Shown here piece by piece: positions 1 through 8,794 of a DNA stretch of 9,649 nucleotides. The notes under the pieces are model-generated. The model ran no database searches and had not been told where the DNA came from. It saw nothing but the letters and a program-made list of their open reading frames with translations. Positions within the stretch are counted from its first letter, which is position 1; the number at the start of each line of letters is the position of its first letter. Source of the DNA: a virus. Its lineage: Duplodnaviria; Heunggongvirae; Uroviricota; Caudoviricetes. The translations under genes and the position numbers were made by a program. The stretch covers positions 1-9,649 of the IMG/VR virus record IMGVR_UViG_3300014893_000026. One strand, written 5' to 3'.

Positions 1-178
1 CACGCTGACGCTGCTGCATGTCAGCGATGGTGGCGATCGCCTGCTTCAGCTCACTGACTTTTTTATCACGCTGTTCTTTGTAGGCGATGGCGTTATCACG
101 GTAATGATTCAGCCCCAGACTAAGCGCACCACAGGCCACCAGCAGGGCAATGATGACCACGCACAGTACGCGGTTCAT
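1..178 (-). CDS. Rz-like i-spanin, N-terminal portion (gene continues past window start)
   Basis: Reverse complement of 1-178 translates from ATG (176-178) as MNRVLCVVIIALLVACGALSLGLNHYRDNAIAYKEQRDKKVSELKQAIATIADMQQRQR: an N-terminal membrane anchor followed by the NHYRDNAI-YK-QRDK motif recalled from lambda Rz. Sits downstream of the endolysin. Absent from the ORF track because no stop codon falls inside the window. Confidence 0.8.
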   Translation of the reverse strand, partial: MNRVLCVVIIALLVACGALSLGLNHYRDNAIAYKEQRDKKVSELKQAIATIADMQQRQR

Positions 179-179
179 T

Positions 180-278
180 TCACCACCAGCGTATCTGACC
201 GATGAAATAACCGGAGGCCATAATCACAAACACCAGCCAGATAAGAATGAACTTCCAGGTGGATAATTTTTCAGCCAT
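180..278 (-). CDS. Hypothetical 32-aa single-TM peptide, stop 1 nt before the Rz ATG
   Basis: Minus-strand ATG at 276-278, translation MAEKLSTWKFILIWLVFVIMASGYFIGQIRWW, stop TGA at 180-182. GGGAG lies about 8 nt upstream of the ATG. Not in the ORF track (below length cutoff). Could also be a remnant N-terminus of an alternative spanin. Confidence 0.35.
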   Translation of the reverse strand: MAEKLSTWKFILIWLVFVIMASGYFIGQIRWW

Positions 279-353
279 CACTCGAATCTCCCGAATCAGT
301 TTGCTAAAATCAAACACACTTTCTCCTTTGACTTTTCCGGAGTCAGGAAACAC

Positions 354-388
354 AAAACCCCGCTTGGTGCCAACAAACGGGGTTTTTA
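354..388. terminator. Terminator-like GC-rich hairpin flanked by A-run and T-run (bidirectional), between endolysin and Rz
   Basis: AAAACCCCG (354-362) and CGGGGTTTT (378-386) are reverse complements around a 15-nt loop. On the minus strand the hairpin is followed by TTTTGTGTTT. Confidence 0.5.
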
Positions 389-476
389 CTTTTATTCACT
401 TACGTTTCGCCAGTTCGCAGGATTTCGTGTTATCCGCCCGCGTGGCCATACCTTATTTTTCAGCAAAATATTCTGC

Positions 477-1010
477 TTATCTGTCGATTCCCCAGCACGC
501 CAGCGCGCTCTCCTGGTCACGACGGGATACCTGACCGTAGCAGTTGTTTGAACGAATACGGCAGTCTCTGCCACCGTCCTTAATCCACCAGCGAATCGCC
601 TCACACGCTCCCCTGCGATCACCTGCATTAATTCGTTTATAAAACGTCGACGGGAAACACTTACCGGGACCAATGTTGTACGGACAGAATGACGCGATCC
701 CCGCTTTCTGGGGTTCACTCAATGGCACTCTGATGTTTTTCTCCACCCATGCCAGCGCCTCATCACGCTCAATGGCGTTAACCCGGTCGCATTTTTCCTT
801 CGACAACTTCATGCCCGGAACGACAGGTTTGCCATCCACCAGGATGGCACCGCGGCAGATGGTCCAGATACCCGCACCATCACGGTATGCCGTGGTGTGG
901 TTACCTTCCTTTTCATCCAGAAACTGGTCGAGAATGTCAGGCGCAGGCGCACCAGCGGCAATCAGCGCCAGAACGGCAGCCGACAGGCCGTATCTGATTT
1001 TTGCGTTCAT
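477..1010 (-). CDS. rrrQ: Phage lysozyme (T4-lysozyme-like / GH24 endolysin) with N-terminal SAR-like hydrophobic segment
   Basis: 177-aa ORF with ATG at 1008-1010. N-terminal YGLSAAVLALIAAGA segment, then E-x8-D-x5-T catalytic spacing (EGNHTTAYRDGAGIWT) typical of T4-type lysozymes. Position in lysis cassette after the holin. Symbol recalled from K-12 Qin RrrQ (same length); unverified. Confidence 0.88.
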   Translation of the reverse strand: MNAKIRYGLSAAVLALIAAGAPAPDILDQFLDEKEGNHTTAYRDGAGIWTICRGAILVDGKPVVPGMKLSKEKCDRVNAIERDEALAWVEKNIRVPLSEPQKAGIASFCPYNIGPGKCFPSTFYKRINAGDRRGACEAIRWWIKDGGRDCRIRSNNCYGQVSRRDQESALACWGIDR

Positions 1011-1115
1011 GGATATTTATCAGGATTTATCGGTTTCTGAGCCCTGGATATGTTTATCAGTTCCAGCCTGTTGCCTCAGGCTGCTAACAGGTCAATACAA
1101 TCATGAGGATTATTT

Positions 1116-1388
1116 ATGGACAATAACACCATTTCTCTACAGGAGTTGCTCGACAGCATTTCCAGGCTTCGGGAAGACGTGAATACCCTTACCGTCGCCT
1201 TCTCATATCTGGCATTCTCAATTCCAAGGGAACAGATGCAATCAACGCTGGCATCAATCCAGTTTGAATCATGCAATCCCAAATGGTCTCAGGAACAACA
1301 AGACTCTTTCAGGCGGCTTGCTGTATTACTGGATGAAAAATATGCTGGTAAAATTACCATTTCGGCGGACTCTTCAGAGAACCCGTAA
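1116..1388 (+). CDS. Hypothetical 90-aa protein, antisense to the lysis operon
   Basis: ATG at 1116 preceded by GAGGA with 6-nt spacing (tgaGGAttatttATG). Fills most of an otherwise empty ~340-bp gap between the DUF1327 gene and the endolysin. 3' end overlaps the DUF1327 gene 3' end by 35 bp (convergent). No family recognised. Confidence 0.4.
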   Translation: MDNNTISLQELLDSISRLREDVNTLTVAFSYLAFSIPREQMQSTLASIQFESCNPKWSQEQQDSFRRLAVLLDEKYAGKITISADSSENP

Positions 1389-1698
1389 TTATTCCCGGTA
1401 GTTTTCCTCTGTAGGTTATCAACACATCCTGCGCCTCTAAAATTACGGGGCGCTTTTCCGGCGACTGCTCATCCCCTTCACATAACCCGGCAGCAACATC
1501 CAGGAAGACCTGTCTGATGCTCCTTCTGGCTGCTGCCTCATAAAACTCCAGCGCGGCACCTTCAACACGGTCCAGCGAGATGTCCAGGTCAAAAATTTCA
1601 CCGTCAAAGCGTTTTTTGTCCCTTAATGCTACAGTTACCGCAACTTTATTCTCAAAATTGCGGATCCCTTTCACAATCAGTTCATAGTTTTGTGTCAT
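1354..1698 (-). CDS. ydfR: DUF1327-family phage protein (YdfR-like)
   Basis: ORF-track entry 1354..1719 begins at a TTG; the likely true start is ATG 1696-1698 (MTQNYELIVKGIRNFENK...), preceded by GGGGAGAG. Lies between holin and endolysin as in K-12 Qin (essQ-ydfR-rrrQ). Family and symbol are from memory. Confidence 0.75.
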   Translation of the reverse strand: MTQNYELIVKGIRNFENKVAVTVALRDKKRFDGEIFDLDISLDRVEGAALEFYEAAARRSIRQVFLDVAAGLCEGDEQSPEKRPVILEAQDVLITYRGKLPGIITGSLKSPPKW

Positions 1699-1702
1699 TG
1701 AA

Positions 1703-1918
1703 TTACTCTCCCCGTGCAACCTTACGCTTGTCTTCTTTAATCTTGAAATAAAGGTTTGTCAGGTACGTCAGCAAGCCAAATACCAGACTACCCAGCACAC
1801 CGATTGCAGCCCACTGTGACGGAGTTACTTTATCGAGTAACTGCAATGCCCAGAAACCAGCATTACCAGCCGATGTGCCATAGGCGATACCTGTTGTTAA
1901 CTTATCCATTGATTTCAT
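1703..1918 (-). CDS. essQ: Phage 21-type class II holin (pinholin)
   Basis: 71 aa, [71 protein letters not shown]: two hydrophobic segments and a basic C-terminus, the S21/EssD/EssQ pattern. ATG at 1916-1918. Confidence 0.9.
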
Positions 1919-2136
1919 ATCCTCACCCCGATGTACACAGATGGTGCAATATGTTTGAAAAGATCGGAGTCTATGGGGTAGTTTTTATAGCAAACGTTGT
2001 TCTCAACGGCGCTAAAAAACAGACACATTAAAAATGTGGGTAATTATTTTAAAAGAAAATCATATATTAAATAATAATACGAGATATGTTTTCATATTTA
2101 GTGTACTGTATACGGCCATTTATACAGGAAAAGCCT

Positions 2137-2307
2137 ATGTCAGAACGTAAAGACTCAAAATCACGCCGTAATTATCTCGTTAAATGTTCCTGCCCAAACT
2201 GCACCCAAGAGTCAGAACACAGTTTTTCAAGAATACAAAAAGGTGCCCTTTTGATCTGCCCTCATTGCAACAAAGTATTCCAGACAAATCTTAAAGCTGT
2301 AGCTTGA
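2137..2307 (+). CDS. Small zinc-ribbon protein (56 aa; two CxxC pairs)
   Basis: ORF-track entry 2086..2307; the likely start is ATG 2137 (MSERKDSKSRRNYLVKCSCPNCTQESEHSFSRIQKGALLICPHCNKVFQTNLKAVA), preceded by AGGAAA at 7-nt spacing. CPNC...CPHC suggests a Zn ribbon. Possibly the K-12 Qin small protein YnfU; that name is from uncertain memory and is not asserted. Confidence 0.65.
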   Translation: MSERKDSKSRRNYLVKCSCPNCTQESEHSFSRIQKGALLICPHCNKVFQTNLKAVA

Positions 2308-2363
2308 TTGATTTTATTCGTAACAAGTATTTTTTATATTTTAATAACATATTTAAAGCAGAT

Positions 2364-2395
2364 AATAAAAAACCCGCCTGAGCGGGTTTAATATT
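2364..2395. terminator. Bidirectional rho-independent terminator between the zinc-ribbon gene (+) and cspB (-)
   Basis: AAAAAACCCGC-ctga-GCGGGTTT (stem 2373-2377 / 2382-2386). The minus strand has the stronger U-run (GCGGGTTTTTTATTATC). Confidence 0.6.
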
Positions 2396-2670
2396 GTGGT
2401 ACTTTTTGTGGGAGTCATCCACTTACGCACTTTGTTTTGCTATGCCAGCAGTTAGCTTCTGCTGTAAAACTATTCATGCAGCAAACCTGCACTTCACCAC
2501 AATGGTTAGCATACTTTTCCTGATTAAGTTATTGCCAAATATGCTGGCCATTGTTTCATGTATTGGACCTCCTTACTATTTATTAAAGAGATCCAATATT
2601 CACCACTCTGTCTGTATCTCCACTCAGGCATCAGCCTTCTTCGTTATCGTATACAGACAAACTATGAATT

Positions 2671-2886
2671 TTAATCAGTAATTATGACATTTGCTGCTGC
2701 AGGACCTTTAGCACCACTCTCTACAGAGAAGGTAACCTTTTGACCTTCAAATAAGGTTCGATAATTATCATTCTGAATCGCAGAAAAATGCACAAACACA
2801 TCTTTACTACCATCAACAGGAGAAATAAAGCCAAAACCTTTATCAGCGTTAAACCATTTTACTAAACCAGTCATTTTATTTGACAT
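2671..2886 (-). CDS. cspB: Cold-shock protein, CspA family
   Basis: 71 aa, [71 protein letters not shown], with RNP1-like KGFGFI and RNP2-like VFVHF motifs. Near-identical to my recollection of E. coli CspB. AAGGA 7 nt upstream of the ATG. Confidence 0.93.
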
Positions 2887-2941
2887 TCTACATTCCTTAA
2901 CTTGAGCCTTTCGGCATAAATGGCTTGTATAACAGAAACGA

Positions 2942-3100
2942 CTTCGTACTTAATTGGAGAGACTCAAAGAAGGAATAAGTGAATAACACCTGAAATGAGA
3001 ACTGCTTTAGTAAACTACTTCGTACTTAATTGGAGAGACTCAAAGAAGGAATAAGTGAATAACACCTGAAATGAGAACTGCTTTAGTAAACTACTTCGTA
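2942..3100. repeat. Perfect 76-bp tandem duplication (two full copies plus 7 bp of a third) in the cspB-cspF divergent intergenic region
   Basis: 2942-3017 and 3018-3093 are identical base for base (cttcgtacttaattggagagactcaaagaaggaataagtgaataacacctgaaatgagaactgctttagtaaacta); 3094-3100 restarts the unit (cttcgta) before diverging. Confidence 0.9.
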
Positions 3101-3262
3101 TATCGTCTGTTCTTCAAACCGACGCAATCATTAACGCATAGTTGAACATATGAAGCAATGTTTATTTTAGACATCCAGCCATCTTCAACCCCATCAAAAA
3201 ACTATAGCTTTCTTCAGGAACGTGTGTATAGTGCGCCAAGTTATCAGTATTAAGGAATTTTT

Positions 3263-3475
3263 TTGTCCCGTAAAATGACAGGAATTCTCAAAACCTTTGA
3301 CGGCAAAAGCGGCAAAGGTCTTATAACCCCATCCGATGGTCGTATCGATGTCCAGCTTCATGTTTCAGCGCTCAATCTCCGCGATGCAGAAGAAATTACC
3401 ACCGGATTACGCGTGGAATTTTGCCGGATAAATGGTCTGCGTGGACCATCAGCTGCCAATGTTTACCTTTCATGA
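3263..3475 (+). CDS. cspF: Cold-shock-domain protein, CspA family (CspF-like)
   Basis: 70 aa, [70 protein letters not shown]. The conserved MS-x-KMTG N-terminus implies a TTG start at 3263 (AAGGA 6 nt upstream); ATG 3275 is the alternative. Divergent from cspB as in K-12 Qin. Confidence 0.85.
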
Positions 3476-3529
3476 GCTATATTAAAGCTTTAACTTCAAG
3501 TCCCATCGAATCAAACATGGAGAGTTTTC

Positions 3530-3619
3530 ATGAATAAACCCGTCTGTCTTGATGACTGGTTGATTGGCTTTAAAAGCTTATGCTGTACTTTGACCTTAAT
3601 AGCTCTGCTAATAATGTAA
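3530..3619 (+). CDS. Hypothetical 29-aa peptide downstream of cspF
   Basis: ATG 3530-3532 preceded by GGAGAG at 5-nt spacing; translation [29 protein letters not shown], stop TAA 3617-3619. Hydrophobic C-terminal half. Below the ORF-track cutoff. No terminator between cspF and this ORF; the first hairpin is at 3766-3791. Confidence 0.3.
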
Positions 3620-3763
3620 TAAGCAGACTCATTGTATCTATGGACATTGTACTGGAAGAAAACATTTTAAACATCAGGCAAAAAACAAAGTCACCCGATA
3701 AATAATAAGTAAACTAACATGAATCCCGTAATGAGATTCAACATCTCTATTACCCTATTTAAA

Positions 3764-3796
3764 GCACAAAAACCCGCTCATCAGCGGGTTTTCTAC
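3764..3796. terminator. tR'-like bidirectional intrinsic terminator
   Basis: AAAAACCCGCT-catc-AGCGGGTTTT (stem 3773-3778 / 3783-3788). The minus strand continues TTTTTGTGCTTT; the plus strand continues TTTTCTACTTTTT. Lies about 40-65 nt downstream of the predicted PR' start on the minus strand. Confidence 0.7.
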
Positions 3797-3837
3797 TTTT
3801 TCTTAACTTCGGGTATACAAAGCCCATCGTTGAAAAA

Positions 3838-3866
3838 ATTTTATCCATATTTTTTGAAAAATGCAA
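3838..3866 (-). promoter_or_regulatory. Late promoter PR'-like sigma70 promoter immediately downstream of Q
   Basis: On the minus strand: -35 TTGCAT (3861-3866), 17-nt spacer, -10 TAAAAT (3838-3843). Sits between the Q stop (3898) and the tR' hairpin, the standard lambdoid Q / PR' / qut / tR' layout. Confidence 0.6.
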
Positions 3867-3897
3867 GCATCACGTCGCCATCTTCGGCGAAAATCAC

Positions 3898-4650
3898 TTA
3901 TCTCGTCACCTTTCTCAATTGTGCTTCAGCGTAAGATTCCTCCTGCCAGCACTTTGTAACCAGTTTATCAATGACATTTGCATATCCTTTATACCACTGA
4001 TAATCACTCAGGTCCGGTACCAGCTTCTGGACATGATGCCGCGCCAGTGTGGTTGGTAAACGACTAAACCGTTTTCCATTGCAACGCCCACAAATCTTAT
4101 AAACAGGTGTGCCATGAAGCCGGGTCCTTTTTTCATCCAGGACAATACCTTTACCCTTACACCCTCTGCACGCTGTGCTGACTTCTCCCTTACCATGGCA
4201 ATGCTGACATAGTTCCTTCACCCACTCTTCTTTGATAACAGATTCCCCGCTTCTGGAGTGTTTCACCACTTCGCGCAATACATTATGAAATCCAGTACCA
4301 GCACAATGCTCACAACGAGCCTTACTTGCCGCAGACCTGGAATAATCAGCAAAGGCAAAATTCACAAGGTAAGGAATAATCTGTAGCCGGGTTTCTTCAC
4401 TCAATTTATTCAATGTCGGGTTATCCAGTGCCATCGCGTAATTGAGCAGACCTTCAATCGCAAACTGAGGATCCTGAACACCAACTTTTGCCAGGAATAA
4501 GGCAAACCCAAGCGGTGCTTTCGACTGCACCATCCCCTGCGCAGCCATCACATCCGTAATCGTTAAACCACCAGAGCCTGTCGCCGGTGCGTCATCACTC
4601 AATTTTGGAGATTTTGGGGAGTAATATTTTGGTAAGGCTTCAAGGTTCAT
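3898..4650 (-). CDS. quuQ: Late-gene antiterminator Q
   Basis: 250 aa with Cys/His clusters (CEHCAGTG, CQHCHGKG, CRGCKGKG, CGRCNGKR), directly upstream of PR'/tR'. Length and N-terminus (MNLEALPKYYSPKSPK...) match my recollection of K-12 QuuQ (YdfT). GGAGA 6 nt upstream of the ATG. Confidence 0.88.
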   Translation of the reverse strand: MNLEALPKYYSPKSPKLSDDAPATGSGGLTITDVMAAQGMVQSKAPLGFALFLAKVGVQDPQFAIEGLLNYAMALDNPTLNKLSEETRLQIIPYLVNFAFADYSRSAASKARCEHCAGTGFHNVLREVVKHSRSGESVIKEEWVKELCQHCHGKGEVSTACRGCKGKGIVLDEKRTRLHGTPVYKICGRCNGKRFSRLPTTLARHHVQKLVPDLSDYQWYKGYANVIDKLVTKCWQEESYAEAQLRKVTR

Positions 4651-4677
4651 GCTCGTTCTCCACTTACGCCAGTACGC

Positions 4678-5664
4678 CTATNNNNNNNNNNGCGCACGAT
4701 CGATAAAACGAAATATCAGCTCCAGCTGGGAGCCATACTTCTCTTCAAATGCCACGGTATCCGCATGCAGCTCGTCGTGATGCTTTCTGCACAAAGGCAA
4801 CACAAAAAGGTCATGCGCTTTTGTTCCCATTCCACCCTGACCGTGACCTGTCAGGTGGTGGGGATCATCTGCGGGCTTTCCACAACATGCACACTGCTGT
4901 GTCTTAACCCAGCGCGTGTACTTTTCATTAACCCAGCGGCGACGTTTTGGGCGTAACATAAAAGACTCCGGCGACTCCGGATCCACTTTCAGCGCCAGCA
5001 CCTTTTTCGCCTTATCCTGGATGATGCTGGTGGCAGGAACCGAAGGCACAAGGTCACTTTCCCGGGTGACAGACGGCACAACAGGCTTCGGTAATCTCAG
5101 TGCCTTACGGGCTGCGCTTTCCGGTAAGGCATCCGCCAGGTCATTACGAATCAGCCACCAGCACAGTTCCGGCATTGTCACAACGTGACTGTCATCAAAA
5201 CCGAGATCCCGACGCACAACAGACAACACCCAGCGGGCACAGTTATCCGTTGCCATTAATTCCAGCCGTTCCGTGAACTGATCGCGCAGCTGGTTATCAC
5301 AGTGCCAGCACAGACGGATTGCACCCGGCGCGTGTCGCATTGTGGTCATGTTCTCGCTGTGCCAGTCGGAATGAGGCCACTGGCAGCCTTTTTCACGAAG
5401 TAACCAGCTTTCAAGACATTCCACGCCACCAGCACGACGGATCACTGCCTCATTGCGGAACACGGCCCGAACGGCAGGATCATCCGCCAGCGGTTGTGAT
5501 ACCGCCGGAACGGCACCACTGGCGAAAGATGAATAACGTTCCGGCTCAGGCTCCAGCAGGACACGCCCCTGCATAAACAGGGGCATCAGTTCTGAACCTG
5601 GTCTGAACAATACGATCCCCATACGCGGGGCAATTTCAGGGGTCAGTAGTGCTCTCACGGTCAC
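4678..5664 (-). CDS. DUF968-like protein with C-terminal Cys/His-rich HNH-like motif (YdfU-like); 3' end interrupted by an assembly gap
   Basis: 328-codon ORF; C-terminal CACCGKP...HHLTGHG...CRKHHDELH resembles an HNH/zinc-binding module. Position after Q matches K-12 Qin ydfU (from memory). The last codons span the N-run 4682-4691, so the true C-terminus and stop are uncertain. Start is GTG 5662-5664 or the next GTG (5656-5658); GAGG is upstream. Confidence 0.65.
   Translation of the reverse strand: MTVRALLTPEIAPRMGIVLFRPGSELMPLFMQGRVLLEPEPERYSSFASGAVPAVSQPLADDPAVRAVFRNEAVIRRAGGVECLESWLLREKGCQWPHSDWHSENMTTMRHAPGAIRLCWHCDNQLRDQFTERLELMATDNCARWVLSVVRRDLGFDDSHVVTMPELCWWLIRNDLADALPESAARKALRLPKPVVPSVTRESDLVPSVPATSIIQDKAKKVLALKVDPESPESFMLRPKRRRWVNEKYTRWVKTQQCACCGKPADDPHHLTGHGQGGMGTKAHDLFVLPLCRKHHDELHADTVAFEEKYGSQLELIFRFIDRAXXXX
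4682..4691. other. Assembly gap (10 N)
   Basis: Run of 10 ambiguous bases between the DUF968 gene 3' end and the Q start codon. Confidence 0.99.
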
Positions 5665-5665
5665 C

Positions 5666-6481
5666 TCAATGAACGGTATCGAGCAGCTTTAACAGCTCAG
5701 GGAATCGGGATTCGAAGAAATGCGGCTGCGTCTCGCGCGGATTTGCAGGACTGGTGATGTTCTTGCCGAACATGCAGCCTTTCGCGGTCAGCGACCAGAA
5801 TTTTTTGATGTTGTTAATCGCGGTACGACTGTATCGTTCGCGTTGTTCAACGATCCCCAGCTTCGCCATCTGGTGATATGCCTGATTAGCCGTCAGGCGG
5901 ATACCATACTGCTTCAGCAGTGCACTCAGCGACAGCGTAGGGCGGCTTGAACCATCTGGCGCATCAGCAGGTGCATCAATGGCATAGATCGGCATAAGTT
6001 CAGGAAGACCAGCTACCTTTGATAATTTCTGGTATGCACCAAGTTTCGAGGAGTTTGACAGATTTAGAGTCTTTGCTGCTGATTCAAGCAGAATGACCCC
6101 GGATTTAATTTTGTCAGATGTGGTTTCTTCTGGTGATGAATTATGAAGCGCATCAAAAGTACGTATCACTTTTAAGCTGAATGCCGGGCTGATCCACATT
6201 GCATATGCATAGACCAGCTCTTTACAGACATACGTCCCACCATTGCGCCCCTGAATGGTGATGACAGGAATACTACGGGAATCTCCCGTAGTTTCTTCTT
6301 CCAATAATTCCACAAGAGCCTTCGTTTCAGGACGACGCATAAACTCGTGAACTTCCAGCGAACGGGAGGAGCGATTCTCACCAGCGGCAAGAAGAGCAGC
6401 TTTCTGAAGGTCGTTAAGACAGTAGTTAGATTCGAAGTACTGGCGCACAGAAACGCCATCAATTACAAGCAACTGATTCAT
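5666..6481 (-). CDS. KilA-N domain protein (Roi/antirepressor-like)
   Basis: ORF-track entry 5666..6493 starts at GTG; the likely start is ATG 6479-6481 (MNQLLVIDGVSVRQ...) with GGAGA 6 nt upstream. The N-terminal ~100 aa (GTYVCKELVYAYAMWISPAFSLKVIRTF) resemble the KilA-N DNA-binding domain. Stop is 1 nt from the DUF968 gene start. Confidence 0.78.
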   Translation of the reverse strand: MNQLLVIDGVSVRQYFESNYCLNDLQKAALLAAGENRSSRSLEVHEFMRRPETKALVELLEEETTGDSRSIPVITIQGRNGGTYVCKELVYAYAMWISPAFSLKVIRTFDALHNSSPEETTSDKIKSGVILLESAAKTLNLSNSSKLGAYQKLSKVAGLPELMPIYAIDAPADAPDGSSRPTLSLSALLKQYGIRLTANQAYHQMAKLGIVEQRERYSRTAINNIKKFWSLTAKGCMFGKNITSPANPRETQPHFFESRFPELLKLLDTVH

Positions 6482-6578
6482 TGGTTTCTCCACAAATTTT
6501 TATCCACGAGCGGGACTGCACTCCCTTTTCGTTGATGCAGGATGAACTTACTGCGATTTTTAATAGTTATCAAGGATA

Positions 6579-6598
6579 CACTGTTCATAAATACAGTA
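6579..6598. promoter_or_regulatory. Canonical LexA (SOS) box, CTGT-N8-ACAG
   Basis: caCTGTtcataaatACAGta: CTGT 6581-6584, 8-nt AT-rich spacer, ACAG 6593-6596. Lies in the 162-bp intergenic region between the rusA stop and the KilA-N start, about 100 bp upstream of the KilA-N ATG. Only CTGT-N8-ACAG match I found by eye in the window. Confidence 0.6.
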
Positions 6599-6643
6599 TC
6601 TTTAACGAGGTAATACCCAAATTTAGGGTGTTGCTCAATTCCG

Positions 6644-7039
6644 TTACCGAGTTGCTAATTTGCAACTCGCTTTTTCGTACTTACTGATAGTGATCTCGAC
6701 CTTCCCCTCCGGGATAACCGGTCCCCACTCCACCAGCATTCTTTTCACCTGACTGTCGTCTTCCCACACACCCGCGTGGGTCAGGGCGTCAAACAGCGCC
6801 TTGTTATAGTTGTCCAGATCGCGGATCCGGTTATCCGGAGGAAACAACACGATCTCCACTGAAGCAGGTGCCGACGTTGGTTTTGGCAGACGACGTAACT
6901 GCTCAACTATTGCTGCACACGCCGCGCTCTGGAATTTTCGCCCCGCCGCGCTTATCAGGCTCTTACCAGCAAACGCCCCTTTGTTGGGGTGTCGCCAGTA
7001 CGTGTTCACGCTGGGCGGAAAAGGCAGGATCAGCTTCAT
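6644..7039 (-). CDS. rusA: RusA-family Holliday junction resolvase
   Basis: 131 aa. LPFPPSVNTYWRH and RDLDNYNKALFDALTHAGVWEDDSQV match the recalled RusA motifs LPWPPSNNRYYRH and [26 protein letters not shown]. Start overlaps the upstream gene stop (ATGA). Confidence 0.85.
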   Translation of the reverse strand: MKLILPFPPSVNTYWRHPNKGAFAGKSLISAAGRKFQSAACAAIVEQLRRLPKPTSAPASVEIVLFPPDNRIRDLDNYNKALFDALTHAGVWEDDSQVKRMLVEWGPVIPEGKVEITISKYEKASCKLATR

Positions 7040-7362
7040 ACTTTCAGGCCCCTCTCATGTAACCAGTGGGCTGCACGCAGCCTGGCGTTTTCCTCACCGG
7101 CAAGCAGTGAGCGGATAATCCCGACCGCCTCGCTGTCGTCGTCCTTCACCACGGTATGAAGCGTGATCCCCCGGGCCACACCACGCTTTATCGTGATGAC
7201 GCCTTTTTTCTCCAGTGCGCGAAGATGCTCCACCGCTGCATTCACTGAACGGTATCCCAGCATGGTTGCCACCTCCTGATTGGTTGGCGGGAAGCCACGT
7301 TCTTTCTGATAAGAAATCAGCATATCCAGCACCTGCTGCTGGCATTGAGTTAACGTCGTCAT
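7036..7362 (-). CDS. LexA N-terminal DNA-binding-domain protein lacking the S24 peptidase domain
   Basis: Likely start ATG 7360-7362 (overlaps upstream stop, TAATG). MTTLTQCQQQVLDMLISYQKERGFPPTNQEVATMLGYRSVNAAVEHLRALEKKGVITIKRGVARGITL aligns along its length with recalled E. coli LexA residues ~1-70, including the recognition-helix region (GFRSPNAAEEHLKAL in LexA). Only ~40 further residues follow; no Ser/Lys peptidase domain. Confidence 0.75.
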   Translation of the reverse strand: MTTLTQCQQQVLDMLISYQKERGFPPTNQEVATMLGYRSVNAAVEHLRALEKKGVITIKRGVARGITLHTVVKDDDSEAVGIIRSLLAGEENARLRAAHWLHERGLKV

Positions 7363-7852: not shown

Positions 7853-8794
7853 TCACCCCCTGAATCCTGCCGGGATCTGGCTGTAGTCCACGTTGTCGTA
7901 ACTGGATTTGAAGTACGGGTCTTCGCGTTTTTCGGTGTACGTGCTGACGGACGGTGATAAGCGCAGGGAAAGCTCATCCCATTTTTCCCGCAACTTCGAC
8001 GGGCTGAGCACGTTACGGCACCAGAACGGATCGCGGTTGACGCGGCTGTACATCTCGCAGATTTGTTTGTGAGTACGACCATCCTGCACACACATCAGGC
8101 GAATTTCGTTTGCCCAGGCTGTCCAGTTCGGTTCTTTGGGACGAACCACCTCGCCGTCACATTCGGCGGCCTGCTCGTACAGGGCGATGATTTTTTTCCA
8201 GAGCCACTGTGCGCAGGTCAAATCATCCTGCGTTCCCCACTGGCGCTTTTTAGGGCTGAATACAACCGCATCAGGATGGCGAGTTAAAAACTCCTGTTCA
8301 GCCGTCTGCGTGTCCGGTTGCGAAGCGTCCGGACGAGAAGTATTTTTATCTGACGGATCATGTTTTGATTTTACTGACGGATCCCCGCCAGATTCTGACG
8401 GGTGAAAACCCGCTTTTTTGCCAGATTTCGACGCATCAAATTTTGACGGGTCAGATTTTGATGCGTCAGATTTTGACGGGTCAGAATCTGACAGTTGAGA
8501 AAATGCCGCTGCCTGAAGCTTCGCAACGTTAAGCTGATAAACATTCGACGCATTGCGGTTACCCTGGCGACGCGCCTTACGCGTTAACCAGCCTTCTGCT
8601 TCCAGCCGTGCGATAGCCGTTCTGACGGTACTCATCCCCGCGCCAATCTGGCGGGCAATGGTTTCAATTGATGGCCAGCACACACCTTCGTCATTACTGA
8701 AATCAGCCAGGCGGGCCATAATTGCCACGCTGGATAACTTCATGCCTGATGCAGCGCAACCATCCCATACATAGCCGGTTAATTTAGTGCTCAT
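7853..8794 (-). CDS. Phage replication initiation protein (O-like), N-terminal winged-helix domain, internal iteron-encoded linker
   Basis: 313 aa. The N-terminus (SVAIMARLADFSNDEGVCWPSIETIARQIGAGMSTVRTAIARLEAEGWL) looks like the HTH domain of phage replication initiators. The central low-complexity SDSDPSKSDASKSDPSKFDASKS region is encoded by tandem DNA repeats. AGAGG upstream of ATG 8792-8794. Confidence 0.7.
   Translation of the reverse strand: MSTKLTGYVWDGCAASGMKLSSVAIMARLADFSNDEGVCWPSIETIARQIGAGMSTVRTAIARLEAEGWLTRKARRQGNRNASNVYQLNVAKLQAAAFSQLSDSDPSKSDASKSDPSKFDASKSGKKAGFHPSESGGDPSVKSKHDPSDKNTSRPDASQPDTQTAEQEFLTRHPDAVVFSPKKRQWGTQDDLTCAQWLWKKIIALYEQAAECDGEVVRPKEPNWTAWANEIRLMCVQDGRTHKQICEMYSRVNRDPFWCRNVLSPSKLREKWDELSLRLSPSVSTYTEKREDPYFKSSYDNVDYSQIPAGFRG
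8340..8500. repeat. Iteron-like array of ~15-bp imperfect direct repeats inside the replication initiator gene (candidate origin)
   Basis: Recurring (T/C)TGACGG / TGA(C/T)GC cores at 8351, 8375, 8396, 8429, 8444, 8458, 8474 (e.g. cagattttgacgggt / cagattttgatgcgt / cagattttgacgggt), with a more AT-rich stretch at 8336-8375 on the gene-downstream side. Confidence 0.6.

What the first reader, a model, noticed from the sequence alone, without database searches (positions are those of the whole stretch)
2942..3100. Perfect 76-bp tandem duplication in the shared cspB/cspF regulatory region
Two identical 76-bp units plus the first 7 bp of a third lie 56-214 bp upstream of the cspB start codon and 163-321 bp upstream of cspF. 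Perfect identity implies a recent duplication, or an assembly artefact. CspA-family genes are controlled largely through long 5' UTRs and upstream elements, so duplicating this segment could change cold induction or mRNA stability of cspB and/or cspF. Each unit carries SD-like GGAGAG and AAGGAA motifs.
Basis: seen in the sequence. Interest (0 to 1): 0.55.

Follow-up and report, generated by a model that had tools for sequence, protein, structure and literature searches.

The report
Duplicated segment in cspB mRNA leader
A 76-base stretch is repeated head-to-tail inside the DNA for the long untranslated leader of the cold-shock gene cspB, a known RNA thermometer; it looks like an ordinary one-off replication-slippage mutation, seen in no other genome searched, with no predicted large effect on the thermometer.

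Summary
The repeat is real in the sequence. It has period 76. The perfectly periodic tract is 2941-3100, that is 2 units plus 8 nt, and the only mismatch is G2940 against T3016/T3092.

It does not lie in a shared promoter region. It lies inside the transcribed cspB 5'UTR, the Rfam RF01766 cspA-type thermoregulator, downstream of the cold box. It lengthens the leader from 161 to 237 nt.

Single-copy genomes already carry ACTTCGTA (12/13 AAAC[G/T]ACTTCGTA) exactly 76 nt apart. That is the signature of slipped-strand duplication.

The duplication junction is absent from:
- 5,426 complete E. coli genomes, of which 1,631 carry this leader allele;
- the GTDB species representatives;
- the JGI metagenomes;
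- IMG/VR;
- the phage and plasmid collections.

The window also holds a 10-N scaffold gap, so it comes from a draft assembly, and 76 = k-1 for k=77. An assembly artefact therefore stays possible at about 0.2, although the microhomology argues against it.

Folding predicts no clear change in RBS sequestration. I read it as a private, recent, probably near-neutral variant of a known element. Interest is low.

The parts
2941..3016 (-). Copy 1 of the 76-nt unit, proximal to the cspB start codon; mRNA positions about +108 to +183 of the 237-nt leader
3017..3092 (-). Copy 2 of the 76-nt unit, distal and next to the cold box; mRNA positions about +32 to +107
3093..3100 (.). ACTTCGTA, the 8-nt start of a 'third' copy. 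It is the microhomology already present in single-copy genomes; with AAACT (3088-3092) it forms the 13-nt short direct repeat
2936..2948 (.). Left short direct repeat AAACGACTTCGTA. It matches AAACTACTTCGTA at 3012-3024 and 3088-3100 in 12 of 13 positions. In single-copy genomes the two copies lie 76 nt apart
2887..3123 (-). Inferred cspB 5'UTR, 237 nt here against 161 nt in single-copy genomes. The transcription start is inferred from the first position of the Rfam model, not measured
   Evidence: UTR length of 160 nt cited in PMC6719143
3102..3123 (-). Cold-box hairpin region of the cspB leader (GUCGGUUUGAAGAACAGACGAU). It is not duplicated and now lies 76 nt further from the rest of the thermometer
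   Evidence: aligned to model positions 1-22 in K-12, left unaligned in the window
2970..2975 (-). Anti-SD UUCCUU in mRNA sense, proximal copy. A second copy lies at 3046-3051
   Evidence: pairs with SD nt 150-155 in the single-copy MFE structure
2893..2898 (-). cspB Shine-Dalgarno AAGGAA. The upstream box GCCGAAAGGCUCA lies at 2903-2915
2671..2886 (-). cspB coding sequence, 71 aa
2858..2871 (-). Segment of the cspB CDS complementary to UTR segments 3001-3014 and 3077-3090 (14 nt, 93%). This is the long-range UTR-CDS helix, and it now has two alternative partners
   Evidence: (I2, I3)
3130..3158 (-). Inferred cspB promoter: -10 GTTAAT at 3130-3135 preceded by TGc, 17-nt spacer, -35 TTGCTT at 3153-3158. 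It lies outside the duplication
   Evidence: sequence reading by analogy with the cspA promoter; inference. The generic scan did not call it
3263..3475 (+). cspF coding sequence, 70 aa, TTG start as annotated in RefSeq relatives

Best explanation
This is a strain-private, very recent 76-bp tandem duplication. It most likely arose by slipped-strand mispairing, or unequal exchange, between two pre-existing short direct repeats (ACTTCGTA, 12/13 over AAAC[G/T]ACTTCGTA) that lie 76 bp apart in the normal allele.

It sits entirely within the DNA encoding the 5' untranslated leader of cspB. That leader is a cspA-type RNA thermometer carried by a Qin-like lambdoid prophage. The mutant leader is 237 nt instead of 161 nt. 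It carries two copies of the 5' arm of the long stem-loop that masks the ribosome-binding site at 37 C, including the UUCCUU anti-SD and the segment that pairs with the early coding region.

A tandem duplication preserves one intact copy of every original junction: cold box plus unit, and unit plus downstream leader. The thermometer can therefore still form with either copy, and the most likely outcome is a small or null regulatory change. cspF is not expected to be affected.

Shown: position, anatomy, microhomology, and absence from every other collection searched. Inferred: the transcription start, the biological rather than assembly origin, and the functional near-neutrality.
For: - Repeat anatomy.
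- Single copy in relatives: K-12, NRZ14408 and 9 further loci have one copy, flanked by both short repeats.
- Microhomology: ACTTCGTA is the longest perfect direct repeat in the reconstructed 300-nt intergenic region. It is also the only one of 224 positions with at least 8 nt of homology at distance 76. The junction copy carries the T variant, as expected for an exchange inside ACTTCGTA.
- Rfam RF01766 match: the window scores 142.8 bits over 3035..2604(-), with the cold-box part of the model left unaligned. Single-copy K-12 scores 158.8 bits and NRZ14408 159.6 bits, both contiguous from model position 1, which lies 161 nt upstream of the ATG.
- Literature: cspB has a ~160-nt leader with a cold box (PMC6719143). 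The cspB, cspG and cspI leaders form a long stem-loop that sequesters the RBS and AUG at 37 C, and a register-shifted UTR-only stem-loop at 10 C (PMC13271884).
- Folding: the SD pairs with unit nt 73-78. The cost of opening the RBS is 15.1 vs 15.4 kcal/mol at 37 C and 25.4 vs 25.3 at 10 C. The refolding barrier estimate is 22.6 vs 19.0 at 37 C and 21.5 vs 22.6 at 10 C.
- No mosaic breakpoint at the repeat: L003 is identical to the window over 1900-4800 apart from the duplication and one SNP.
- No promoter-like site is created.
Against: - No independent sequence carries the junction. It is absent from 5,426 complete E. coli genomes, GTDB species representatives, JGI metagenomes, IMG/VR, phages and plasmids. 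The event therefore rests on one assembly.
- That assembly is a scaffolded draft, with 10 N at 4682-4691 standing for 5 nt.
- The period of 76 equals k-1 for the common de Bruijn k of 77.
- The claim of functional neutrality rests only on equilibrium and heuristic folding. That approach cannot model co-transcriptional folding, RNase E cleavage or Csp binding.
Confidence: 0.7

Rival explanations
1. Assembly or scaffolding artefact. Two contigs that truly overlap by 76 nt (k-1 with k=77), or a mis-closed gap, were joined end to end without trimming the overlap. This would create a perfect direct duplication that does not exist in the cell.
For: - The window is a draft scaffold: a 10-N run at 4682-4691 replaces only 5 nt of the relatives.
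- The period of 76 equals k-1 for a widely used k-mer size (own knowledge of assemblers).
- The copies are perfectly identical.
- The junction is found nowhere else.
Against: - The duplication endpoints coincide exactly with the longest pre-existing direct repeat of the region: 8 nt perfect, 12/13 extended, and 1 of 224 positions at that spacing. Contig ends at k=77 have no reason to fall there, so this would be roughly a 1e-4 coincidence.
- A de Bruijn assembler cannot produce junction k-mers that are absent from the reads.
- The other join in the same scaffold was marked with Ns rather than concatenated.
- There is no change in sequence affinity at the repeat.
Confidence: 0.2
2. A genuine and adaptive regulatory mutation. 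Doubling the 5' arm and anti-SD of the cspB thermometer, and moving the cold box 76 nt away, changes mRNA stability or cold-induced translation of CspB, and this was selected in the strain's niche.
For: - The duplicated segment is the functional core of a probed thermometer (PMC13271884).
- In the folded ensemble both copies compete for the RBS.
- The leader is otherwise extremely conserved: at least 99% identity in 1,616 of 1,632 records.
Against: - The predicted RBS opening energies and refolding barriers are essentially unchanged.
- It is a singleton with zero divergence, so there is no sign of persistence or spread.
- Other lineages tolerate an IS5 insertion in this leader.
- The reciprocal deletion is also absent, so the site is not a recurrent switch.
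Confidence: 0.08
3. One reading: the duplication of a shared upstream regulatory element alters transcription of both divergent genes, cspB and cspF.
For: The repeat lies between the two start codons.
Against: - The repeat is downstream of the inferred cspB transcription start.
- It is more than 160 nt upstream of the cspF start codon, with the cspB promoter in between.
- No promoter-like hexamers lie in it on either strand.
Confidence: 0.03

Closest known systems
cspA-type thermoregulator (Rfam RF01766); the cspB 5'UTR of the E. coli K-12 Qin prophage
   Same: The sequence is identical to the common cspB leader allele outside the duplication. The cold box, upstream box, SD, anti-SD and UTR-CDS long-range helix are all present. 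The model scores far above the Rfam gathering threshold.
   Different: The leader is 76 nt longer. The 5' arm of the long stem-loop is present twice. The cold box is displaced from the rest, and the covariance-model score drops by about 16-17 bits. No such allele occurs in the 1,631 complete genomes that carry this leader.
Slipped-strand (microhomology-mediated) small tandem duplications
   Same: The copies are head to tail with no spacer. The endpoints fall in short direct repeats that pre-exist in the ancestral allele. The copies are perfectly identical. The general mechanism is as summarised in PMC6054270, citing Levinson and Gutman 1987.
   Different: Nothing is unusual. The only particular point is that the duplication falls within an RNA thermometer.
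Contig-overlap or gap-closure duplications in draft assemblies
   Same: The duplication is perfect, its length equals k-1 for k=77, and it sits in a scaffold that holds an N gap.
   Different: The endpoints sit on an 8-13-nt microhomology, which this kind of artefact does not predict.

Membership tests
Rfam RF01766 cspA thermoregulator (cspB leader) | Covariance-model score above the curated gathering threshold (78 bits) | tested here: met
   142.8 bits, E 1.3e-37, window 3035..2604 minus strand
Rfam RF01766 cspA thermoregulator (cspB leader) | Lies directly upstream of, and runs into, a cold-shock-domain gene on the same strand | tested here: met
   cspB CDS at 2671-2886 (-). RefSeq relatives annotate CspB there, and the product hits Pfam CSD
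Rfam RF01766 cspA thermoregulator (cspB leader) | Cold box at the 5' end, contiguous with the rest of the leader | tested here: inconclusive
   The cold-box sequence is present and identical to K-12 (3102-3123). It is separated from the aligned part by the extra 76 nt and is left unaligned by the model (compared)
Rfam RF01766 cspA thermoregulator (cspB leader) | Long stem-loop that masks the SD and AUG | tested here: met
   The MFE and ensemble pair SD AAGGAA with UUCCUU of the unit. P(paired with unit) is 0.74-0.76, in both single-copy and duplicated forms. This is prediction only
Rfam RF01766 cspA thermoregulator (cspB leader) | Temperature-dependent structural switch and cold-induced translation | not testable with these tools
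   Shown for the single-copy cspB leader in vitro by others (PMC13271884). Not known for the duplicated allele
Slipped-strand tandem duplication | Head-to-tail copies with no intervening sequence | tested here: met
   Start-to-start spacing of 76 for a 76-nt unit
Slipped-strand tandem duplication | Short direct repeats at both ends of the unit in the unduplicated allele | tested here: met
   AAACGACTTCGTA and AAACTACTTCGTA lie 76 nt apart in K-12 and NRZ14408. This is the longest direct repeat of the region
Slipped-strand tandem duplication | Present in the DNA of the organism (read or PCR support) | not testable with these tools
   No reads are available, and no second assembly carries the junction
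Assembly artefact (unmerged contig overlap) | Duplication length equals the assembler's overlap, in a draft or scaffolded sequence | tested here: inconclusive
   76 = 77-1 and a 10-N gap lies 1.6 kb away. The assembler and its k are unknown
Assembly artefact (unmerged contig overlap) | Endpoints unrelated to local sequence features | tested here: not met
   The endpoints fall exactly on the 8-nt (12/13-nt) microhomology

The most novel reading that the evidence does not exclude
The duplication is real and is a natural 'arm-doubling' mutation of an RNA thermometer. It measurably retunes cold induction or mRNA decay of cspB, for example by offering a second anti-SD strand or by uncoupling the cold box from the switch. 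It would then be a natural example of how RNA thermometers evolve by internal tandem duplication.
Probability: 0.08. Interest if true: 0.5.

Novelty: new variant of a known kind. Interest (0 to 1): 0.2.

Why it matters
If genuine, this is a naturally occurring allele of a well-studied RNA thermometer. The RBS-masking 5' arm is present twice, and the cold box is moved 76 nt away. That makes it a ready-made test of whether the cspB/cspG-type switch depends on the spacing and stoichiometry of its arms. Beyond that it is an ordinary private slippage mutation in a redundant prophage-borne gene. If it is an artefact, it matters only as an assembly-quality flag.

Tried and rejected
(1) Independent occurrences of the junction. 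I used a 91-nt and a junction-specific 40-nt query against 5,426 complete E. coli genomes. I ran an exact-pattern scan of the GTDB representatives, JGI metagenomes and IMG/VR. I also searched the phage and plasmid collections. None carries it.

(2) The reciprocal deletion between the two short repeats, which would mark a recurrent slippage hotspot. None was found.

(3) Finding the source assembly or clonal relatives through exact proteins:
- The DUF968 look-up failed because the ORF is broken by the N-run.
- The YdfT and lysozyme look-ups returned only single-copy loci or differently organised prophages.

(4) My own 'short-circuit' idea: a free distal arm masks the RBS even in the cold. It is not supported. 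RBS-opening energies and findpath barriers are nearly equal for the single and duplicated leaders.

(5) A mosaic or recombination breakpoint at the repeat. Rejected: L003 is identical across 1900-4800.

(6) A new promoter or terminator created by the junction. None was found.

(7) A coding reading of the plus-strand 'SD-like' motifs. I read only 4- to 24-codon frames by eye. No ORF of at least 40 aa lies in the repeat, and RefSeq annotates nothing under the repeat, so I rejected this reading.

(8) The primary papers on cspB and cspA leaders (PMC94110, PMC103761, PMC5910227, and the CspI paper) could not be read, as they are not held. Statements about the cspA promoter and about assembler overlap conventions rest on my own knowledge.

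Full report
**Observation.** The window contains a head-to-tail repeat of a 76-nt unit. Tandem Repeats Finder gives 2936-3100, period 76, 2.2 copies, 98% matches, score 323. The repeat finder gives copies at 2936-3011 and 3012-3087, plus a 13-nt third start at 3088-3100. Read directly, the tract 2941-3100 is perfectly periodic, so 84 nt equal 84 nt. The single difference is G2940 against T3016 and T3092, and AAAC matches again to the left of it. Chance is excluded.

**Context.** The window is part of a Qin-like lambdoid prophage. RefSeq relatives of 97% identity annotate, in order:
- lysis protein, rrrQ lysozyme, a YdfR-family protein and the essQ holin;
- ynfU, cspB, cspF and a 29-aa YnfS-like ORF;
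- the Q-type antiterminator ydfT, DUF968, KilA-N, RusA and a LexA-family regulator;
- PerC/yfdN, an HTH_36 protein, DUF4222 and ymfL.

**What the repeat sits in.** The Rfam cspA thermoregulator model (RF01766) covers the leader, coding sequence and terminator.
- In single-copy K-12 it scores 158.8 bits, and in NRZ14408 159.6 bits. Both matches are contiguous from model position 1, which lies 161 nt upstream of the cspB ATG. This agrees with the ~160-nt cspB leader and cold box described in the literature (PMC6719143).
- In the window it scores 142.8 bits over 3035..2604 on the minus strand. It uses the copy nearest cspB and leaves the cold-box hairpin of the model unaligned. The real cold box, identical to K-12, lies 76 nt further upstream at about 3102-3123.
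- The inferred transcription start is therefore about 3123. The whole duplication (2941-3100) is transcribed leader, and the leader grows from 161 to 237 nt.
- The likely cspB promoter lies outside the repeat, as does everything within 160 nt of cspF. I read the promoter as TTGCTT, 17 nt, TGcGTTAAT at 3130-3158, by analogy with cspA. This is my own inference.
- The phrase 'shared regulatory region' is therefore not accurate. The repeat is the cspB mRNA leader.

**What is duplicated, in RNA terms.** A recent in vitro DMS-probing study (transcripts made and probed at 37 C or 10 C) reports the same behaviour for the cspB, cspG and cspI leaders. At 37 C they form one long stem-loop spanning the leader and the early coding region, which sequesters the RBS and start codon. 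At 10 C they form a register-shifted, shorter, UTR-only stem-loop that frees them (PMC13271884).

ViennaRNA folding of the reconstructed single-copy mRNA reproduces the long stem-loop:
- SD AAGGAA (nt 150-155) pairs with UUCCUU (nt 73-78) of the unit.
- The AUG pairs with nt 63-67.
- UTR segment UUUACUAAAGCAGU pairs with codons 5-9 of the coding sequence. The repeat finder sees this independently of any folding, as inverted repeats I2 and I3.

The unit is therefore the 5' arm of the thermometer.

**How it arose.** In single-copy genomes the unit is already bounded by AAACGACTTCGTA on the left and AAACTACTTCGTA on the right, 76 nt apart (alignment A1).
- In the reconstructed 300-nt intergenic region, ACTTCGTA is the longest perfect direct repeat. 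It is also the only one of 224 positions with at least 8 nt of homology at that spacing.
- The junction copy carries the right-hand T variant, as expected if the exchange happened inside ACTTCGTA.
- This is the textbook footprint of slipped-strand mispairing between short direct repeats (mechanism as summarised in PMC6054270).
- Zero divergence between the copies means the event is very recent.

**Is it real?** No other sequence has the junction.
- A 91-nt query found the leader allele in 1,631 of 5,426 complete E. coli genomes. It was at least 99% identical in 1,616 of 1,632 records. Every top-ranked hit was a two-piece, 76-89-nt single-copy match.
- A 40-nt query that only a true junction can match found nothing.
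- Exact-pattern scans of GTDB representatives, JGI metagenomes and IMG/VR found nothing.
- Six phages and four plasmid records carry one copy.
- Of the ten loci with an identical YdfT, eight carry one copy and two lack the unit.
- The reciprocal deletion is also absent, so the site is not a recurrent switch.

The window holds a run of 10 N at 4682-4691 that stands for only 5 nt in relatives. It therefore comes from a scaffolded draft. The value 76 also equals k-1 for k=77. An unmerged contig overlap must be considered for these reasons.

Several points weigh against an artefact:
- Such an artefact has no reason to end on the one 8-13-nt microhomology of the region, roughly a 1e-4 coincidence.
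- A de Bruijn assembler cannot create junction k-mers that are absent from the reads.
- There is no change in sequence affinity at the repeat. L003 is identical over 1900-4800 apart from the duplication and one SNP.

I put a real mutation at about 0.75-0.8 and an artefact at about 0.2.

**Consequences.** A tandem duplication keeps one intact copy of every original neighbourhood.
- In the predicted ensemble the RBS stays masked to the same degree. The two copies share the pairing: 0.29/0.45, 0.05/0.69 and 0.33/0.42 at 37 C, depending on how much coding sequence is included.
- The cost of forcing the RBS open is 15.1 vs 15.4 kcal/mol at 37 C and 25.4 vs 25.3 at 10 C.
- In a UTR-only fold, the cold-box region pairs with the segment just downstream of the unit and encloses one or two units.
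- The heuristic barrier from that state to the masked state is 22.6 vs 19.0 kcal/mol at 37 C and 21.5 vs 22.6 at 10 C.
- My hypothesis that a spare arm would mask the RBS in the cold is therefore not supported.
- No promoter-like or terminator-like site is created.

cspB is also redundant: four csp genes must be deleted for cold sensitivity (PMC4956666). Six pig isolates carry an IS5 in this very leader. The best reading is a near-neutral private variant. These calculations cannot capture co-transcriptional folding, RNase cleavage or Csp binding, so a regulatory effect is not excluded.

**Comparison with known systems and verdict.** The element is the known cspB leader, which passes the Rfam membership test. 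Its structural hallmarks are present, although the cold box is displaced. The change is a known kind of mutation. The combination is not found in any searched collection, nor in a full-text search for cspB with 'tandem duplication', which makes it a new variant of a known kind. It is of low general interest. It could serve as a natural test allele for the thermometer model if read support confirms it.

Noticed in passing
window 4682-4691: A run of 10 N. In close relatives only 5 nt (TGCCA) lie there. The run shifts the frame and truncates the DUF968 ORF, which is 329 aa in relatives. This shows that the window comes from a scaffolded draft assembly.
   Followed up: yes
window 8422-8485: A tandem array of a 15-nt unit, CAGATTTTGACGGGT, in 4.3 copies (also read as 30 nt x 2.1). 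It lies inside the 313-aa HTH_36 gene (7853-8794, minus strand) and looks like the iterons of a lambdoid replication origin embedded in the initiator gene.
   Followed up: no
L021 (NZ_CP062895.1 and five sister pig isolates), aligned to window ~2949/3025: An IS5 element is inserted in the cspB leader right at the boundary of the 76-nt unit, next to CTTAATTGG. The cspB leader is therefore disrupted naturally in another lineage.
   Followed up: partly
window 1-1909 versus 1900-7362: The prophage is a mosaic. The lysis cassette (1-1909) is ~96% identical to cassettes that in other genomes follow a 617-aa DUF1737/SASA esterase gene (L013-L020). Positions 1900-7362 are ~99.5% identical to Qin-like loci such as L003. 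Most relatives also carry a Dam methyltransferase gene between PerC and the LexA-like gene that the window lacks.
   Followed up: partly
window 3263-3475 and 3530-3619: cspF is annotated with a TTG start 6 nt after an AAGGA motif, here and in K-12. A 29-aa YnfS-family ORF follows it.
   Followed up: no
window 2996-3055 plus strand: Reading the plus strand by eye (not checked with the ORF listing or translate), the duplication changes a short frame that starts at the ATG at 2996. It would end after 19 codons here, against 24 codons in single-copy genomes. It is antisense to the cspB leader and not annotated in RefSeq genomes; one phage record lists a 'hypothetical protein' there.
   Followed up: no
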